Shown here: one piece after another, positions 7,611-23,357 of the stretch
Layout: each line of letters starts with the position of its first letter
Numbering within the stretch: the first letter of the stretch is position 1
Source of the DNA: a phage
Length of the DNA: 64,000 nucleotides
Sequence record: PX393108.1
Reading direction: 5' to 3' (one strand)
Made by a program: the position numbers and the translations under genes
Notes under the pieces: model-generated
The model's database searches: none
The model's input: only the letters and a program-made list of their open reading frames with translations
What the model was told of the DNA's origin: nothing

Positions 7611-7823
7611 TCATTTTTGTCCTGTATTTACTTTGTGCCGATGCACGGCCTTAACTTTATCAAGGTATTTTTCAAAATTTCGCAATCTAGTATAGTCTGC
7701 CGGAGATTGGTTGAGTGATACTTCTCGACGCAAAGCTGAAATGATATTTCCAACTTCCCTACGAATTTCATCTAATTGAAGAACAGTAAGATTGCGAAGT
7801 TGCTTTTCAGTTAATTGTAGCAT
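7611..7823 (-). CDS. rI.1: rI.1-like protein
   Basis: 70 aa ORF between tk and rI. Confidence 0.55.
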
Positions 7824-7865
7824 ATATACCCCTTTAGTTAGATAAACCTATTTATAACTTTTGCA

Positions 7866-8447
7866 CTAACCGAGCTTTTTAGTTAATTCATTCCAATGTT
7901 TTCTACACAAAGAAACATAAATTTCATCACCAATACAGATTTGATTACCTTCTTTAACTGGTGTTCCATCTTCCATTAATCGAGCTGTCATAATAGCTTT
8001 TTTACCACAATGACAAACTGCTTTTAGTTCAATAAGTTTATCTGCAATCGCCAAAAGTTCTTTAGAACCTTCAAATAATTTTCCAGCGAAATCAGTCCTT
8101 AGCCCATAAGCCATAACAGGAACATTGTATGTATCGACAATTCGGCTTAATTGATGCACCTGTTCAGTTTTTAAAAACTGAGCTTCATCTACAAATACGC
8201 AATGAATATCTTTTTGTGCTTCAGCCCATTTATAGAACTCAAAAATATCCATATCATCCGTAATAATATTCGCTTCCTGCTTAATTCCAATGCGAGAAAC
8301 GACTTCACAGACAGAATCGCGAGTATCAATAGCAGGTTTAAGAACTAATACACCCATTCCGCGTTCTTTATAATTATGCGCAGCAGTCAAAAGAGAAGCA
8401 GATTTTCCAGCATTCATTGCTGCATAAGTAAAAATTAAACTCGCCAT
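7866..8447 (-). CDS. tk: thymidine kinase
   Basis: 193 aa; P-loop AMNAGKS, FVDEAQF, C-terminal Cys cluster typical of TK1-type kinases; T4 Tk size. Confidence 0.9.
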   Translation of the reverse strand: MASLIFTYAAMNAGKSASLLTAAHNYKERGMGVLVLKPAIDTRDSVCEVVSRIGIKQEANIITDDMDIFEFYKWAEAQKDIHCVFVDEAQFLKTEQVHQLSRIVDTYNVPVMAYGLRTDFAGKLFEGSKELLAIADKLIELKAVCHCGKKAIMTARLMEDGTPVKEGNQICIGDEIYVSLCRKHWNELTKKLG

Positions 8448-8456
8448 ATCACCTTC

Positions 8457-8663
8457 TTAAAGCGTATTCACATAAGCTATTAATTCGTTTTCTTTCTTAT
8501 CAAACCGGTCAGCAAATTCTTCTTGCTGTTCGGGAGATAGCGGGCCGTATTCATCATAAAAGGTGTTTGCTTCTGTATGCTCATCTAGAAGTTCATGGAT
8601 AAGCTCAAACAATTTATCTTTTTGTTCTTTACTCAGACTCATAACCATGTAACCTTTAAGCAA
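8457..8663 (-). CDS. hypothetical small acidic protein
   Basis: 68 aa ORF. Confidence 0.45.
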   Translation of the reverse strand: MLKGYMVMSLSKEQKDKLFELIHELLDEHTEANTFYDEYGPLSPEQQEEFADRFDKKENELIAYVNTL

Positions 8664-8851
8664 TATTCTTCTACATGTTGTTTACGACCTTTCCTATCAA
8701 TAAAGGTATATTCAACGAATGTTCCAATATAGTCTTTATCTACATCATGAGGACTATTAATTGGGCATTTAGTACGGCAAATGCGTTCCCATTGACGAAT
8801 AATTTCCGCTTTGTTTTTAGGATCAAACGGATGCGGGTAATGTACTTTCAT
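8639..8851 (-). CDS. hypothetical protein
   Basis: 70 aa ORF. Confidence 0.4.
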   Translation of the reverse strand: MKVHYPHPFDPKNKAEIIRQWERICRTKCPINSPHDVDKDYIGTFVEYTFIDRKGRKQHVEEYCLKVTWL

Positions 8852-9302
8852 AATCCACCACTATCAAATCAATATCAGGAGTAAACATGTCGATTAATTT
8901 AGAAACCTTATCCCAATCACCGCCAGCAATACCACAACCTATGCGTGGAATATAAATTACTGGTTTAAACAAAAGGGTCTCTGCCTGTAGATTTAATTCT
9001 ATCATGCAATTTACTAAAGCACCATAATCAAGATTAGGACCCGGTTCGTATTGCGTATACAGGTTATAGCATATACCAAATCCCGTAGGACTATGTTTAA
9101 AAACAATAGACATATCGCCTAATTTATCGCGAGAACCGTACTCGGTAGTAGTTTTATCTATTTCTAAAATTTTGGGATAGGCTCTTGCTAATTGACCTGC
9201 CACACCTGAACCCATAGTATGAAAGCAGTTGCACCCGTGCGCAATAATATTACCTTGAAGAAATAGGGCGACAATATCGCCCTTGATATATTTTACAATC
9301 AT
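8823..9302 (-). CDS. macro domain protein (TARG1/OARD1/DarG-like ADP-ribose hydrolase fold)
   Basis: 159 aa; KGDIVALFLQGNIIAHGCNCFHTMGSGVAGQLA and IPRIGCGIAGGDW fit macro-domain ligand-binding loops. Confidence 0.65.
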   Translation of the reverse strand: MIVKYIKGDIVALFLQGNIIAHGCNCFHTMGSGVAGQLARAYPKILEIDKTTTEYGSRDKLGDMSIVFKHSPTGFGICYNLYTQYEPGPNLDYGALVNCMIELNLQAETLLFKPVIYIPRIGCGIAGGDWDKVSKLIDMFTPDIDLIVVDYESTLPASV

Positions 9303-9640
9303 CTAGTACTCAATCCTCGATTATAAGAATCTACCAAACGGTCAACCATTGAATGACAAGCGGCTTTATCTTTCTCCTCCGCAACTGAACATTCTAAGGT
9401 ATTCCACTTTTTAGCATATCGTTTTAATAAAGTATCGTTCTTGTATCTGCTTGATTTATCTCTTTCTCCGTCTTTATATGCATATATTAATTTCTGCGCA
9501 AATTCAGCTTGGCATGCTTTATTTTTCCCGCAATAATCCGCGGCAGTACGGTTTACATACTCTCTAATTTCAGTATATGATGTATTTGCTAACGCAGAAA
9601 ATGAAATTAATCCTATACATAAAACCAAAATTTTAGTCAT
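9299..9640 (-). CDS. secreted small Cys-containing protein (signal peptide)
   Basis: 113 aa; N-terminal MTKILVLCIGLISFSALA then four Cys. Confidence 0.55.
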   Translation of the reverse strand: MTKILVLCIGLISFSALANTSYTEIREYVNRTAADYCGKNKACQAEFAQKLIYAYKDGERDKSSRYKNDTLLKRYAKKWNTLECSVAEEKDKAACHSMVDRLVDSYNRGLSTR

Positions 9641-10178
9641 TTACTATTTCCAAAAGTTTATTATTTTTAAGGTAGTTAGCCTTTTCTAGGACTTCAGAAG
9701 CATATTTAGAACCTGCTTTAACATTCCATCCCGAATTATAAGAGGATATAGCCTTTCTTATATCGCCCTTATGTATATTTAACCAATAAGAAAGTTCAAT
9801 GTACGCCCAGGAAGCTGAATTGGACCGTTTATTCAACATTCTTTTTATTTCGGCATCGGTCATATTATAACCAAGTTCCTTAACTCTTGCTCGCATAGTA
9901 GGCAAATAATTTTGGAACATTCCGTAGGCATGATGCTTTGGTTTAGATTTTAAATTAACTCCGGCAGAGCTTTCTTGCCATAAAATAGCAGCCATTATAT
10001 GACCTAATCCGCTCTTATGGATATTTTTGTGTGTTTTATATTTTCCATCCTTAGAAAATTGTTCCCCGAATTGATACGCGTAACGCATGTTATCGAGTTG
10101 GACATTACTGAAAGTATGCTCGGAGCTATGTGCCATCATTGAAATGGCCAATAGACCAGCGAGTAGTGCTTTTCTCAT
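9633..10178 (-). CDS. periplasmic soluble lytic transglycosylase-like protein (SLT domain)
   Basis: 181 aa; signal peptide MRKALLAGLLAISMMAHS; SLT motif AAILWQESSAG...YGMFQ. Confidence 0.65.
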   Translation of the reverse strand: MRKALLAGLLAISMMAHSSEHTFSNVQLDNMRYAYQFGEQFSKDGKYKTHKNIHKSGLGHIMAAILWQESSAGVNLKSKPKHHAYGMFQNYLPTMRARVKELGYNMTDAEIKRMLNKRSNSASWAYIELSYWLNIHKGDIRKAISSYNSGWNVKAGSKYASEVLEKANYLKNNKLLEIVND

Positions 10179-10185
10179 GCTTACC

Positions 10186-10647
10186 TCATTGAGTTTTAAT
10201 TACTGCTTTAGAAGCCTTTCCCGGTAAACGACGACTATTGATAATTGCCATCCTGCACTGAAGTGACGGGTCTTTGAACTTCGCATTAGGTTTACAAACT
10301 GTAAATCCAAGCCAAAGATTTCCATCTGTGATTTCTAAACGCCCAGGACGATATTCAACCCCATCAATAAAATCCTCGTCAATGTCAGGACGCGGAGGCA
10401 TACTCAGGAATTCATTAACTTCTAAAACATGGTCTTTTATTTTATGGAATAATTCAAAAACATATGTCTCATCAATCTCCCGTTGAATTGCACGATCAAG
10501 AAGATGCTGAGAATATTTTAGATGAAACGATGAGACCCCTGCTGCTTTTGATGCCTCACGAATCTCATTGTTAATTTGACGAAACTCCGACTCAAAGTGA
10601 CGACGGAGCTTATTTCGACGGATAAAAACTTCTGTGTTGATAGTCAT
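10186..10647 (-). CDS. regB: RegB site-specific endoribonuclease
   Basis: 153 aa; matches recalled T4 RegB sequence and size; preceded by early promoter. Confidence 0.8.
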   Translation of the reverse strand: MTINTEVFIRRNKLRRHFESEFRQINNEIREASKAAGVSSFHLKYSQHLLDRAIQREIDETYVFELFHKIKDHVLEVNEFLSMPPRPDIDEDFIDGVEYRPGRLEITDGNLWLGFTVCKPNAKFKDPSLQCRMAIINSRRLPGKASKAVIKTQ

Positions 10648-10674
10648 GTTATTCTCCTCTTAACTGATAGAAAA

Positions 10675-10703
10675 ATTATACCACAGTCAAGAGGAAAAGT
10701 AAA
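10675..10703 (-). promoter_or_regulatory. T4-type early promoter (TTTACT-17-TATAAT) for regB
   Basis: -10 TATAAT at 10675-10680, -35 at 10698-10703, SD AAGAGGAGAATAAC. Confidence 0.55.
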
Positions 10704-20472: not shown

Positions 20473-20548
20473 CTCACTTATAATTGGTCGAGGCAGTAGG
20501 GATCGAACCTACGACCTAGGACTTAGAAGGTCCTTGCTCTTCCTTCTG
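20473..20548 (-). tRNA. tRNA-Arg (anticodon UCU)
   Basis: Cloverleaf folded by hand: anticodon loop CTTCTAA, T-arm GTAGG-TTCGATC-CCTAC, CCA encoded. Confidence 0.85.
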
Positions 20549-20552
20549 AGCT

Positions 20553-20628
20553 ATGCCCCGTAATTGGGGTGACCGATGGGAGTCGAACCCATGACTACGA
20601 GAATCACAATCTCGAGTTCTACCAACTG
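20553..20628 (-). tRNA. tRNA-His (anticodon GUG), discriminator C73, no encoded G-1
   Basis: Anticodon stem-loop CGAGATTGTGATTCTCG; 3' end CCACCCCA like E. coli tRNA-His. Confidence 0.8.
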
Positions 20629-20753
20629 AACTACGGCCACATTAATACCTACTCCAACAATCAAGATGTCTTCACACGAAATTAAGAGAAGAGTGATCAG
20701 TTCAACCCTATAATCGCGTCAAGTAGATATTAATGTGACAGTTGTCACAAATT

Positions 20754-20828
20754 TGGCGGACGTGATAGGATTCGAACCTATAACCAATCGCTTAACAGGC
20801 GATCGCTCTGCCATTGAGCTACACATCC
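20754..20828 (-). tRNA. tRNA-Asn (anticodon GUU)
   Basis: Anticodon loop CTGTTAA; T-arm ATAGG-TTCGAAT-CCTAT; CCA encoded. Confidence 0.8.
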
Positions 20829-20832
20829 AAAT

Positions 20833-20919
20833 TGGTGGGGAGTGATGGAGTCGAACCACCCGAGTCGCAATGACAATGGATTTACAGTCCACACCGCTAC
20901 CTCTACGGGATAACTCCCC
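20833..20919 (-). tRNA. tRNA-Tyr (anticodon GUA), long variable arm
   Basis: 87 nt; anticodon loop CTGTAAA; discriminator A; CCA encoded. Confidence 0.8.
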
Positions 20920-20932
20920 TTAATTCTTAATT

Positions 20933-21007
20933 TGGTGGCCCTGGGTGGAATTGAACCACCATCTGGCGATTATGAGTCGCTTGCTTGAACCTTCCAGCTA
21001 CAGGGCC
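20933..21007 (-). tRNA. tRNA-Ile (anticodon CAU, Ile2/lysidine type; Met not excluded)
   Basis: Anticodon arm GCGACTCATAATCGC identical to E. coli tRNA-Ile2 as recalled; CCA encoded. Confidence 0.75.
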
Positions 21008-21008
21008 T

Positions 21009-21085
21009 TGGTGCTGATTGACGGAATCGAACCGCCGACCTTCTCATTACAAGTGAGTTGCTCTACCTACTGAGCTAAATCAGCA
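21009..21085 (-). tRNA. tRNA-Thr (anticodon UGU)
   Basis: Anticodon loop CTTGTAA; perfect 7 bp acceptor stem; 1 nt from Ile tRNA. Confidence 0.85.
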
Positions 21086-21089
21086 AAAC

Positions 21090-21179
21090 TGGCGGAGGCG
21101 ATAGGATTTGAACCTATGAGTCGCCGGAGCGACTGCCGGTTTTCAAGACCGGTGCATTAAACCACTCTGCCACGCCTCC
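21090..21179 (-). tRNA. tRNA-Ser (anticodon UGA), type II
   Basis: 90 nt; anticodon loop TCTTGAAAA region; long variable arm. Confidence 0.85.
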
Positions 21180-21181
21180 AG

Positions 21182-21255
21182 TCTCCATACAAGGATTTGA
21201 ACCTTGGACCTCCTGATCCCAAATCAGGCGCTCTACCAAACTGAGCTACACGGAG
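21182..21255 (-). tRNA. tRNA-Pro (anticodon UGG), CCA not encoded
   Basis: Anticodon loop TTTGGGA; 3' end lacks CCA; 2 nt from tRNA-Ser. Confidence 0.8.
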
Positions 21256-21265
21256 TAAATTAAAT

Positions 21266-21339
<74 letters not shown>

Positions 21340-21344
21340 AAATT

Positions 21345-21431
21345 TGGTGCGAGAAGTGGGACTCGAACCCACAAGGAAATCATTCCGCAGCATTTTAAGT
21401 GCTGTGCCTTTACCAATTTGACCATTCTCGC
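21345..21431 (-). tRNA. tRNA-Leu (anticodon UAA), type II
   Basis: 87 nt; anticodon loop CTTAAAA; long variable arm. Confidence 0.85.
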
Positions 21432-21432
21432 G

Positions 21433-21505
21433 CTGGGAATAAAGGACTCGAACCTTTGCATCCTGGAATCAAAATCCAGTGCCTTACCAACTTGGCTAAT
21501 TCCCA
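21433..21505 (-). tRNA. tRNA-Gln (anticodon UUG), starts with U1, CCA not fully encoded
   Basis: Anticodon loop TTTTGAT; abuts tRNA-Leu as a dimeric precursor. Confidence 0.85.
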
Positions 21506-22402: not shown

Positions 22403-22807
22403 TTAACCTTTATCAACAATAGTATGAGTATGGGCATTTACAATTTGCCACCAGTCGAAACTATCGCCAAATCGTTTTGATTTATTGTCTTCAATAATTT
22501 GGCGTAATTCATCTTCTGTTTCAGCATACGCAATCAAATCATCATATCCACCGCAAGGATAGTAATTATCGCCTGCGAACAAAAGAAAATTTACTTTAGA
22601 TGGGTCTACATAATAATGCTCTTTAGGATATTTAGTTCCTTTCCAATCAGTTACTTCAACATAACGGTAAGAAAATCCATTTTTACTTTCAACCCAACTC
22701 CACGCTTCAAAAGGAGTATTAAAAACTTTATCAGGTATTAAATTACCTTCAAAATGAGAAGGATTTGCATAATCCCCAGCATAAACATAGTATTCGTTAA
22801 TACTCAT
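22403..22807 (-). CDS. hypothetical protein
   Basis: 134 aa ORF. Confidence 0.5.
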   Translation of the reverse strand: MSINEYYVYAGDYANPSHFEGNLIPDKVFNTPFEAWSWVESKNGFSYRYVEVTDWKGTKYPKEHYYVDPSKVNFLLFAGDNYYPCGGYDDLIAYAETEDELRQIIEDNKSKRFGDSFDWWQIVNAHTHTIVDKG

Positions 22808-22993
22808 CTATTCACCTTTAGAAATTTTATCCATAACAATAGCGATTAAACCAATTAAAAATGCTACTACAAGTGAAAACACATTTTCTGCTGTAGTTAA
22901 TAATCCACATATAAATCCAACAAACATTGAAAAACTAAAAGCAGAAGCAGAAATTGCAATAGCAACATTTCGAATTAATTCACAACGTTTCAT
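22808..22993 (-). CDS. small single-pass membrane protein
   Basis: 61 aa, almost entirely hydrophobic; preceded by early promoter. Confidence 0.5.
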   Translation of the reverse strand: MKRCELIRNVAIAISASAFSFSMFVGFICGLLTTAENVFSLVVAFLIGLIAIVMDKISKGE

Positions 22994-23021
22994 TTTATTC
23001 TCCTCGGTAGTTGATAGGGTA

Positions 23022-23050
23022 ATAGTATCACAACTAAAACCCTATGTAAA
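23022..23050 (-). promoter_or_regulatory. T4-type early promoter (TTTACA-17-TACTAT)
   Basis: Conserved cassette; near-identical to the copy at 23387-23415. Confidence 0.5.
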
Positions 23051-23069
23051 CAACTTTGTGAAATATTTA

Positions 23070-23357
23070 TTACAAAAGATTTTTAGCAATAATCTTGAGA
23101 TGTGCCGCAGAAATGTGTTTAGCTTTAAACAACGCAGTTTCTTCAGCAGGAGAGATAATGATTGTAGCACCATCCTTTTTAGCAGACCACCCATCACCTA
23201 GGTAAACAGTACCTTTGATTTCTTCGCCATCAACCAAACTAATCATTGGTTTACCTTCTCGTCCTTTATTTGCTTTAATAACTTCAGAAGTAAGAGTAGC
23301 TTCAGTAATAGTAGAAACCGGGGTAGTTTTTGTAGTAAACTCTTTGAAAGTTTTCAT
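23070..23357 (-). CDS. internal protein I-like capsid-targeted protein (CTS MKTFKEF...ITE)
   Basis: 95 aa; CTS-like N-terminus; position upstream of 57B corresponds to ipI in T4. Confidence 0.6.
   Translation of the reverse strand: MKTFKEFTTKTTPVSTITEATLTSEVIKANKGREGKPMISLVDGEEIKGTVYLGDGWSAKKDGATIIISPAEETALFKAKHISAAHLKIIAKNLL

What the first reader, a model, noticed from the sequence alone, without database searches (positions are those of the whole stretch)
8823..9302. Phage-encoded TARG1/DarG-like macro domain in the regB-tk early operon
The 159 aa product has the macro-domain ligand-binding signature (GDI...GNIIAHGCNC...MGSGVAGQLA and IPRIGCGIAGGDW). The closest architecture I recognise is the TARG1/OARD1 clade, which is also the fold of the DarG antitoxin that removes ADP-ribose from DNA. 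An early-expressed macro domain could therefore reverse host ADP-ribosylation defences (DarT-like DNA modification or protein ADP-ribosylation), or process ADP-ribose-derived signals. It is co-transcribed with regB, a periplasmic SLT and tk.
Basis: partly seen in the sequence, partly recalled or inferred. Interest (0 to 1): 0.7.

Follow-up and report, generated by a model that had tools for sequence, protein, structure and literature searches.

The report
T4-type phage anti-DarT macrodomain (tk.4/adfM)

Summary

A November 2025 preprint (HIDEN-SEQ) showed that deleting T4 tk.4 sensitises T4 to DarTG2 and renamed the gene adfM.

Three refinements come from this work:
- **Active site.** The protein lacks the catalytic Lys of TARG1 and DarG and the Asp of TARG1. 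It carries an invariant Gln84/Asn25/Gly124 set that matches Gln85/Asn27/Gly128 of Streptomyces SCO6735, a Lys-less macrodomain shown to cleave thymidine-linked ADP-ribose from ssDNA.
- **Allele.** The window's protein is only 58% identical to T4/T2 Tk.4. It sits as a sharply bounded divergent cassette in flanks that are 93-100% identical, and this allele has not been tested.
- **Family.** It is a large family of stand-alone proteins of about 150 aa, present in 2,790 of 50,697 phage records.

Hydrolase activity has not been shown for any T-even Tk.4. Verdict: already known, low interest.

The parts
8823..9302 (-). tk.4 / adfM-type ORF: 159 aa, a single macro domain. The last 29 nt overlap the start of tk.3.
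9195..9239 (-). Codons H22-G36 (HGCNCFHTMGSGVAG): the first ADP-ribose-binding loop. It includes invariant Asn25 (9228-9230), the equivalent of SCO6735 Asn27.
   Evidence: Coordinates checked. N25 is present in 258/258 ungapped homologues. The role of Asn27 comes from PMC9411070.
9051..9053 (-). Codon Gln84. It occupies the position of the catalytic Lys84 of TARG1 and Lys80 of DarG, and equals Gln85 of SCO6735.
   Evidence: hhalign against TARG1 and SCO6735. HMM alignment to BT1257. Gln in 260/260 sequences. The SCO6735 Q85A mutant is inactive (PMC9411070).
8913..8948 (-). Codons P119-W130 (PRIGCGIAGGDW): the second, diphosphate-binding loop. Gly124 equals SCO6735 Gly128, and Ala126 sits where TARG1 has Asp125.
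9156..9158 (-). Codon Asp49. It is invariant in the Tk.4 family but has no counterpart in SCO6735, BT1257 (Tyr) or TARG1. Its role is unknown.
   Evidence: 260/260. Alignments.
10675..10703 (-). Sigma-70 / T4-early-type promoter-like site (GTTTAC, 17 nt, TATAAT, with upstream TG) ahead of regB. It is the likely start of the transcript that reaches tk.4.
   Evidence: Its function is inferred.
7866..10647 (-). Tightly packed same-strand gene block regB, vs.1, vs, tk.4, tk.3, tk.2, tk, which provides the expression context.
   Evidence: Junction sequences.
9265..9283 (-). 8-bp G+C-rich hairpin inside tk.4 codons 7-13. It is conserved in T4 and weakly terminator-like. Its significance is unproven.
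   Evidence: z -2.25 in the window, -1.1 in T4.

Best explanation
The ORF is the tk.4/adfM gene of a T4-like phage. I read it as a stand-alone ADP-ribosyl glycohydrolase made early in infection.

**Proposed role.** The host toxin DarT2 attaches ADP-ribose to thymidine in single-stranded phage DNA. This enzyme removes it, so replication can proceed on hosts that carry DarTG2. Because it erases the mark rather than binding the toxin, it should work against any transferase that makes the same adduct.

**Proposed chemistry.** The mechanism is probably that of SCO6735, not of DarG or TARG1. No lysine nucleophile is present. Gln84, held in place by Asn25, positions the distal ribose, and a backbone-activated water attacks C1''.

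**Status of each step.**
- Shown here: the ORF, the fold, the class, the active-site residues and the synteny.
- Shown by others for the T4 allele: the gene is needed to plate on DarTG2.
- Shown by others for SCO6735: T-ADPr hydrolysis without a Lys.
- Inferred: this 58%-identical allele does the same, the protection is enzymatic, and the gene is expressed early.
For: - **ORF and macro domain:**
- **Orthology:** the gene sits in the T4 tk.4 position between vs and tk.3 and is 58% identical to T4 Tk.4 at E=1e-70.
- **T4 genetics:** tk.4 was the only HIDEN-SEQ hit on DarTG2, and the knock-out was sensitised. T2 and T4 lacking adfA and adfN stay DarTG2-resistant (PMC11825919).
- **Active site:** Gln84, Asn25 and Gly124 are invariant in 258-260 homologues. 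They align to Gln85, Asn27 and Gly128 of SCO6735.
- **SCO6735 biochemistry:** the Q85A and N27S mutants lose activity. The wild type cleaves DarT-made T-ADPr on ssDNA and rescues DarT toxicity in E. coli (PMC9411070).
- **Precedent in another phage:** an unrelated phage macrodomain, PhiKZ gp104, removes DarT2 marks in vitro (PMC13309987).
- **Early expression:** an early-type promoter lies upstream of regB and no terminator follows before tk. GenBank X04567 calls this stretch the T4 'early region'.
Against: - No biochemical assay exists for any T-even Tk.4. The preprint itself says only that enzymatic removal 'seems likely'.
- The allele in this window is 58% identical to the one tested, and T2 carries the T4 allele too. 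This version is therefore untested.
- Tk.4 lacks the 5-residue longer 'mobile loop', with its Lys residues, that SCO6735 and Bt_1257 have and that was proposed to aid DNA processivity.
- The ALC1 macro domain also has Gln at this position and is a non-catalytic binder, so Gln alone does not prove activity.
- The same class also acts on protein-Glu-ADPr, on U-ADPr in RNA and on ADP-ribose-1''-phosphate (Poa1p). DNA may not be the only substrate.
Confidence: 0.77

Rival explanations
1. It is a small-molecule enzyme, as in the historical annotation 'A1pp phosphatase'. It would be an ADP-ribose-1''-phosphate phosphatase like yeast Poa1p, or an O-acetyl-ADP-ribose deacetylase, cleaning up NAD-derived metabolites rather than repairing DNA.
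For: - T4 RefSeq and PHROG 335 call the protein 'phosphatase'.
- The CDD A1pp match has been noted since 2006.
Against: - The annotation is a domain-name transfer, not an assay.
- The sequence match to Poa1p is strong only over residues 3-79.
- T4's RNA-repair pathway (Pnk plus RNA ligase; own knowledge) does not generate Appr>p or Appr1p.
- The only phenotype known for tk.4 is DarTG2 sensitivity.
Confidence: 0.06
2. Its main substrate is ADP-ribosylated protein or RNA, not DNA. It would reverse host ART-type defences that mark RNA or proteins, or tune the phage's own Alt/ModA/ModB modifications.
For: - Members of this class (TARG1, SCO6735, DarG) also remove ADP-ribose from uracil in ssRNA (PMC13036486).
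- SCO6735 and TARG1 act on Glu-linked protein ADP-ribose.
- T-even phages carry three ARTs of their own (own knowledge).
Against: - Alt and Mod modify arginine, a linkage that macro domains of this class are not known to cleave (own knowledge).
- The CmdT adenine-ADPr mark on mRNA is described as irreversible.
- In the T4 screen, tk.4 was the single significant hit on the DarTG2 host; its behaviour on the other defence hosts was not read here.
- This reading may be an additional activity rather than a true rival.
Confidence: 0.1
3. It is a non-catalytic binder or sponge. It would shield ADP-ribosylated DNA, sequester ADP-ribose-containing immune signals such as Thoeris gcADPR, or bind DarT2 directly.
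For: - Some macro domains are readers only. ALC1 is one, and it also has Gln at the 'catalytic' position.
- No catalysis has been demonstrated for Tk.4.
Against: - All three residues needed for SCO6735 catalysis are invariant across 260 homologues. ALC1 has lost the Asn and the Gly.
- The protein lacks the DarT-binding C-terminal domain of DarG: it is 159 aa and scores 27.7 bits against a DarG cut-off of 250.
Confidence: 0.04

Closest known systems
T4 Tk.4 = AdfM (anti-DarT factor Macrodomain), bioRxiv 10.1101/2025.11.20.689424
   Same: - It occupies the same locus, between vs and tk.3 and downstream of regB.
- It is a single macro domain of similar length (159 vs 155 aa), 58% identical at E=1e-70.
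- All family-invariant residues are shared.
   Different: - It is a deeply diverged allele. DNA identity falls to 47-82% inside the ORF while the flanks are 93-100% identical.
- The second Gly-rich loop reads GCGIAGGDW, against GAGIGKGNW in T4.
- It carries a 4-aa C-terminal extension that overlaps tk.3.
- Only the T4 allele, which is identical in T2, has a phenotype on record.
Streptomyces coelicolor SCO6735 / Bacteroides Bt_1257 (Lys-less subclass of ALC1-like macrodomains; PDB 5E3B, 2FG1)
   Same: - They are the best PDB sequence and structure matches.
- Gln replaces the catalytic Lys, and the Asn27 and Gly128 equivalents are conserved.
- The proteins are stand-alone, with no DarT partner.
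- SCO6735 cleaves T-ADPr on ssDNA and rescues DarT toxicity.
   Different: - Identity is only 26-29%.
- Tk.4 lacks the 5-6-residue longer mobile loop.
- Tk.4 has its own invariant Asp49 and Tyr82.
- Tk.4 is phage-encoded and used as a counter-defence.
DarG (DarTG2 antitoxin) macrodomain, e.g. M. tuberculosis 5M3I, T. aquaticus 5M31
   Same: - It is presumed to act on the same substrate, the ADP-ribose mark DarT2 puts on thymidine.
- The Asn is conserved.
   Different: - Tk.4 has no Lys80.
- Tk.4 has no C-terminal DarT-binding domain.
- No darT gene is adjacent.
- It scores far below the NCBIfam DarG cut-off (27.7 vs 250 bits).
Human TARG1/OARD1
   Same: It has the same class and size, and a profile match at E=3e-17. 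TARG1 also reverses T-ADPr on DNA.
   Different: The Lys84/Asp125 dyad is replaced by Gln84/Ala126, so the Schiff-base mechanism is not possible.
PhiKZ gp104, independently also named AdfM (Cell Rep 2026, PMC13309987)
   Same: It is a phage stand-alone macrodomain that counters DarTG2. De-ADP-ribosylation of DNA was shown in vitro for it.
   Different: It belongs to a different clade: DarG-like with the 'PTK' lysine. It is only distantly related to the Tk.4 family (hhalign E=2e-9). It is imported into the phage nucleus.
T4 AdfN (gene 30.3, NADAR)
   Same: It uses the same strategy, an orphan antitoxin-like eraser carried by T-even phages.
   Different: It has an unrelated fold, is specific for guanine-ADPr (DarTG1), and lies at a different locus outside this window.

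Membership tests
Macro domain superfamily (Pfam PF01661) | Profile match above the curated gathering score | tested here: met
   32 bits against a cut-off of 22, E=1.3e-7, covering residues 22-136.
Macro domain superfamily (Pfam PF01661) | Three-layer alpha/beta/alpha macro fold | tested here: met
   [not shown]
ALC1-like class (TARG1 / DarG / SCO6735 / Poa1p) | Closest structural and profile neighbours belong to this class, separated from the MacroD, viral and PARG classes | tested here: met
   [not shown]
TARG1/OARD1 | Catalytic Lys84-Asp125 dyad | tested here: not met
   Gln84 and Ala126 occupy the aligned positions.
DarG antitoxin (NCBIfam NF048014, PADLOC DarG) | Equivalog score, and the two-domain architecture with a C-terminal DarT-binding domain | tested here: not met
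   27.7 bits against a cut-off of 250. The protein is 159 aa against a 338-position model, and only the macro part matches.
DarG antitoxin (NCBIfam NF048014, PADLOC DarG) | Catalytic Lys80 | tested here: not met
   Gln is present in 260/260 family members. The equivalence Lys80 = Lys84 = Gln85 comes from PMC9411070.
DarG antitoxin (NCBIfam NF048014, PADLOC DarG) | Encoded next to a darT toxin gene | tested here: not met
   The neighbours are vs and tk.3 (DUF7202). A bacterial homologue is also stand-alone.
SCO6735/Bt_1257 subclass | Gln at the catalytic position, plus the Asn27 and Gly128 equivalents | tested here: met
   Q84, N25 and G124 align to Q85, N27 and G128 and are invariant in the family.
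SCO6735/Bt_1257 subclass | Mobile loop five residues longer than in TARG1 and DarG | tested here: not met
   There is a 5-residue gap opposite SCO6735 'KTGSK' and a 6-residue gap opposite BT1257.
SCO6735/Bt_1257 subclass | Hydrolysis of thymidine-linked ADP-ribose on ssDNA | not testable with these tools
   This needs a biochemical assay. It has been shown for SCO6735 only.
T4 Tk.4 / AdfM | Positional orthology (regB-vs.1-vs-[tk.4]-tk.3-tk) and sequence homology | tested here: met
   (58% identity, E=1e-70, full length).
T4 Tk.4 / AdfM | Required for plating on a DarTG2 host | not testable with these tools
   This was shown for the T4 allele. The window's allele is untested; T2 carries the T4 allele.
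Poa1p-type ADP-ribose-1''-phosphate phosphatase | Phosphatase activity on Appr1p | not testable with these tools
   [not shown]

The most novel reading that the evidence does not exclude
Two deeply diverged tk.4 alleles circulate at comparable frequency among Tequatroviruses. They are 58% identical in protein and about 50% identical in DNA over the C-terminal two-thirds. The genomes that carry them are otherwise 93-100% identical around the gene.

If this polymorphism is maintained by selection, the alleles may differ in function. They could differ in substrate scope (T-ADPr DNA versus U-ADPr RNA or other adducts). They could also differ in susceptibility to a host factor that senses or inhibits AdfM. 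In that case this allele would be more than a copy of T4 AdfM.

The family-specific invariant Asp49 could also mark a catalytic solution distinct from both the Lys type and the SCO6735 type.
Probability: 0.15. Interest if true: 0.55.

Novelty: already known. Interest (0 to 1): 0.22.

Why it matters
DarTG systems are widespread toxin-antitoxin defences, and T-even phages stack several counter-measures against them (AdfA, AdfN, AdfM).

Recognising tk.4-type macrodomains as erasers of thymidine ADP-ribosylation explains why these phages ignore DarTG2. It also gives a function to a gene family found in about 5% of sequenced phage genomes.

What this analysis adds is modest. The T-even enzyme belongs mechanistically with the Lys-less SCO6735 type rather than with DarG. 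The locus is also an allele-swapping hotspot, so the published T4 result should not be assumed to cover the allele found here without a test.

Tried and rejected
- **Membership in DarG or TARG1 proper.** Rejected. The catalytic Lys/Asp, the second domain and a toxin neighbour are all absent.
- **Origin as an 'orphan DarG'.** The closest relatives are stand-alone proteins of about 150 aa: median 156 aa, and 1 of 258 is at least 300 aa. A bacterial homologue in Pelagimonas has no DarT nearby. A direct DarG origin is therefore not supported. Only one bacterial context was inspected.
- **The hairpin at 9265-9283 as a terminator splitting the operon.** It lies inside the ORF and is conserved in T4. 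Its folding z-scores are unremarkable (-2.25 and -1.1) and its U-tract is weak. It is not treated as functional.
- **Rfam at gathering threshold over the whole window.** It found only tRNAs and nothing near the gene.
- **Poa1p literature search for catalytic residues.** It returned nothing usable. The LeRoux 2022 DarTG paper is not held in the library.
- **3D check that Asn25, Gln84 and Asp49 line the pocket.** This could not be done, because model coordinates are not exposed to the scripting tool.

Full report
**Observation.** The window is a T4-like phage (Tequatrovirus). The stretch 7800-10700 is 98.9% identical to Shigella phage SH-1 and matches several hundred T-even genomes. Its neighbours on the same strand, in order, are:
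- regB (Pfam REGB_T4, E=1e-68);
- vs.1 (SLT domain, signal-peptide-like N-terminus);
- vs;
- this ORF;
- tk.3 (DUF7202);
- tk.2 (DUF7438);
- tk.

In phage ime09 and in T4 the ORF in this position is annotated tk.4.

**Is it a macro domain of the TARG1/DarG kind?** Yes.
- Pfam Macro scores above its gathering threshold, at E=1.3e-7.
- Direct sequence search of the PDB finds BT1257 (4e-10), yeast Poa1p (1.6e-9), SCO6735 (8.5e-8), M. tuberculosis DarG (4.9e-5) and TARG1 (0.01).
- A profile built from 58 homologues raises these to between 1e-19 and 1e-10, while coronavirus nsp3 macro domains score only 2e-3.
- An AlphaFold2 model built on that alignment is confident, with pLDDT 93.8 and pTM 0.89.

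**What is already known.** The A1pp/macro match of tk.4 orthologues was reported in 2006 (PMC1524935), and RefSeq calls the T4 protein 'phosphatase'.

T2 and T4 were known to resist DarTG2 even without adfA and adfN, which suggested a further factor (PMC11825919). In November 2025 the HIDEN-SEQ preprint reported that tk.4 was the single significant hit when a T4 transposon library was grown on a DarTG2 host. A clean tk.4 knock-out was sensitised to DarTG2. The authors noted structural similarity to the DarG macrodomain, renamed the gene adfM, and considered enzymatic removal of ADP-ribose from DNA 'likely'.

A separate 2026 paper gave the same name to PhiKZ gp104 and showed in vitro removal of DarT2 marks (PMC13309987).

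**Refinement 1: the active site is not that of TARG1 or DarG.**
- Profile-profile alignment to TARG1 puts Gln84 opposite the nucleophile Lys84, and Ala126 opposite Asp125.
- Alignment to SCO6735 puts Gln84 on Gln85, Asn25 on Asn27 and Gly124 on Gly128. The SCO6735 sequence was recovered from the PDB alignment, and its numbering was verified against Val25, Asn27, Gln85 and Gly128.
- Hloušek-Kasun et al. (PMC9411070) showed four things about SCO6735. It lacks the Lys/Asp residues. Its Q85A and N27S mutants are inactive. It cleaves DarT-made thymidine-ADP-ribose on ssDNA faster than DarG or TARG1. It rescues DarT toxicity in E. coli. They propose a backbone-activated water mechanism.
- In 260 aligned members of the Tk.4 family, Gln84 is present in 260/260, and Asn25 and Gly124 in 258/258.
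- ALC1 also has the Gln but is a non-catalytic reader, and it has lost the Asn and the Gly. This makes the conserved trio in Tk.4 meaningful.

There are also differences from SCO6735 and Bt_1257. Tk.4 lacks their 5-6-residue longer 'mobile loop'. It has its own invariant Asp49 and Tyr82, which have no counterpart in the solved relatives. PhiKZ gp104 'AdfM', by contrast, keeps the DarG-type 'PTK' lysine and is only distantly related (hhalign E=2e-9). The two proteins named AdfM therefore represent different branches of the class.

**Refinement 2: this is not the T4 allele.**
- The protein is 58% identical to T4 Tk.4, and T2 Tk.4 is identical to T4's.
- A DNA alignment of the window against T4 shows 93-100% identity through tk, tk.3, vs, vs.1 and regB. 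Identity falls to 47-82% within 8823-9284, so the divergence is bounded almost exactly by the ORF. tk.1 is also missing and tk.2 has diverged.
- In the phage collection, 313 records carry a protein at least 90% identical to the window's. About 225 carry DNA at least 90% identical to the T4 allele.
- The two alleles therefore co-circulate in otherwise near-identical backbones, which is typical of counter-defence loci.
- All family-invariant residues are shared. The differences lie in a beta-hairpin (residues 64-77), helices 93-113 and 130-150, and the second Gly loop (GCGIAGGDW against GAGIGKGNW).

**Family breadth.**
- tblastn finds homologues in 2,790 of 50,697 phage records.
- An exhaustive HMM search finds 1,141 50%-identity clusters at E<=1e-30 and 9,385 at E<=1e-10. 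Nearly all of the best hits are single-domain proteins of 145-200 aa.
- A bacterial member, in Pelagimonas, sits among housekeeping genes with no DarT nearby.
- The family thus looks like stand-alone erasers rather than truncated DarG antitoxins.

**Expression.**
- A promoter-like site with T4-early features (GTTTAC, 17 nt, TATAAT, upstream TG) lies at 10703-10675, just before regB. The Shine-Dalgarno sequence of regB contains GGAG.
- The downstream ORFs overlap or abut (ATGA at the vs/tk.4 junction).
- No credible terminator is predicted on that strand before tk.
- GenBank X04567 describes this T4 segment as an 'early region' and lists only 'potential' internal promoters.
- Co-transcription and early timing are therefore plausible inferences, not demonstrated here.

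**Mechanism proposed.** The protein is made early. It scans single-stranded phage DNA, binds ADP-ribose attached to the N3 of thymidine by DarT2, and hydrolyses the N-glycosidic bond by the Lys-independent, Gln/Asn-positioned water mechanism. This releases ADP-ribose and restores a replicable template.
- Shown here: fold, class, residues and synteny.
- Shown by others: the T4 phenotype and the SCO6735 chemistry.
- Inferred: catalysis by Tk.4, equivalence of this allele, and timing.

Confidence is about 0.77.

**Rivals.**
- A metabolite phosphatase or deacetylase, as in the old annotation.
- A protein or RNA de-ADP-ribosylase. This is possible as a side activity, since TARG1, DarG and SCO6735 also act on U-ADPr RNA.
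- A non-catalytic binder.

None of these has positive evidence beyond similarity.

**Verdict.** Two open points remain. No T-even Tk.4 has been assayed biochemically. The common, 58%-diverged allele present in this window has not been tested.

Noticed in passing
window 8447-9284 compared with T4 (L002): The tk-vs interval is a mosaic hotspot. tk.1 is absent, tk.2 is only 50-77% identical, and tk.4 is 47-82% identical at the DNA level. tk, tk.3, vs, vs.1 and regB are 93-100% identical to T4.
   Followed up: partly
window 9265-9283 (-): There is an 8-bp G+C-rich hairpin (GGGCGAUAUUGUCGCCC) inside tk.4 codons 7-13, followed by a U-rich run and conserved in T4. Folding z-scores are only -2.25 and -1.1. 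A 2026 preprint reports that the T2 tk.4 mRNA is captured with the host sRNA ArcZ on Hfq. No link between the two was tested.
   Followed up: partly
window 9156-9158 and 9057-9059 (-) (Asp49, Tyr82 of Tk.4): These two residues are invariant in all 260 family members but have no equivalent in SCO6735, BT1257 or TARG1. They could be family-specific catalytic or substrate-binding residues.
   Followed up: no
window 20485-21505 (-): This is a cluster of 11 tRNA genes: Arg, His, Asn, Tyr, Met(CAT), Thr, Ser, Pro, Gly, Leu and Gln. The close relative ime09 has 9 annotated, and T4 has 8 (own knowledge). The CAT-anticodon tRNA may be the lysidine-type tRNA-Ile.
   Followed up: no
window 9299-9640 (-) (vs) and 9633-10178 (-) (vs.1): Both products start with signal-peptide-like sequences (MTKILVLCIGLISFSALA..., MRKALLAGLLAISMMAHS...). 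That is odd for a 'valyl-tRNA synthetase modifier'. vs was the most strongly depleted T4 gene in minimal medium in HIDEN-SEQ.
   Followed up: no
window 10648-10703 (-): The regB leader has a T4-early-type promoter and a Shine-Dalgarno sequence containing GGAG, the RegB cleavage motif. This is consistent with the known autoregulation of regB (own knowledge).
   Followed up: no
window about 22600-23100 (-), by synteny with ime09 (L006): A 57B homologue is expected here. T4 57B is the anti-CBASS nuclease Acb1 according to the HIDEN-SEQ preprint. If present, the window would carry a second known counter-defence gene. This was not verified in the window sequence.
   Followed up: no
literature, not the window: Two unrelated phage macrodomains now share the name AdfM. 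T4 Tk.4 is Gln-type and SCO6735-like. PhiKZ gp104 is Lys-type and DarG-like. This is a likely source of future annotation confusion.
   Followed up: yes
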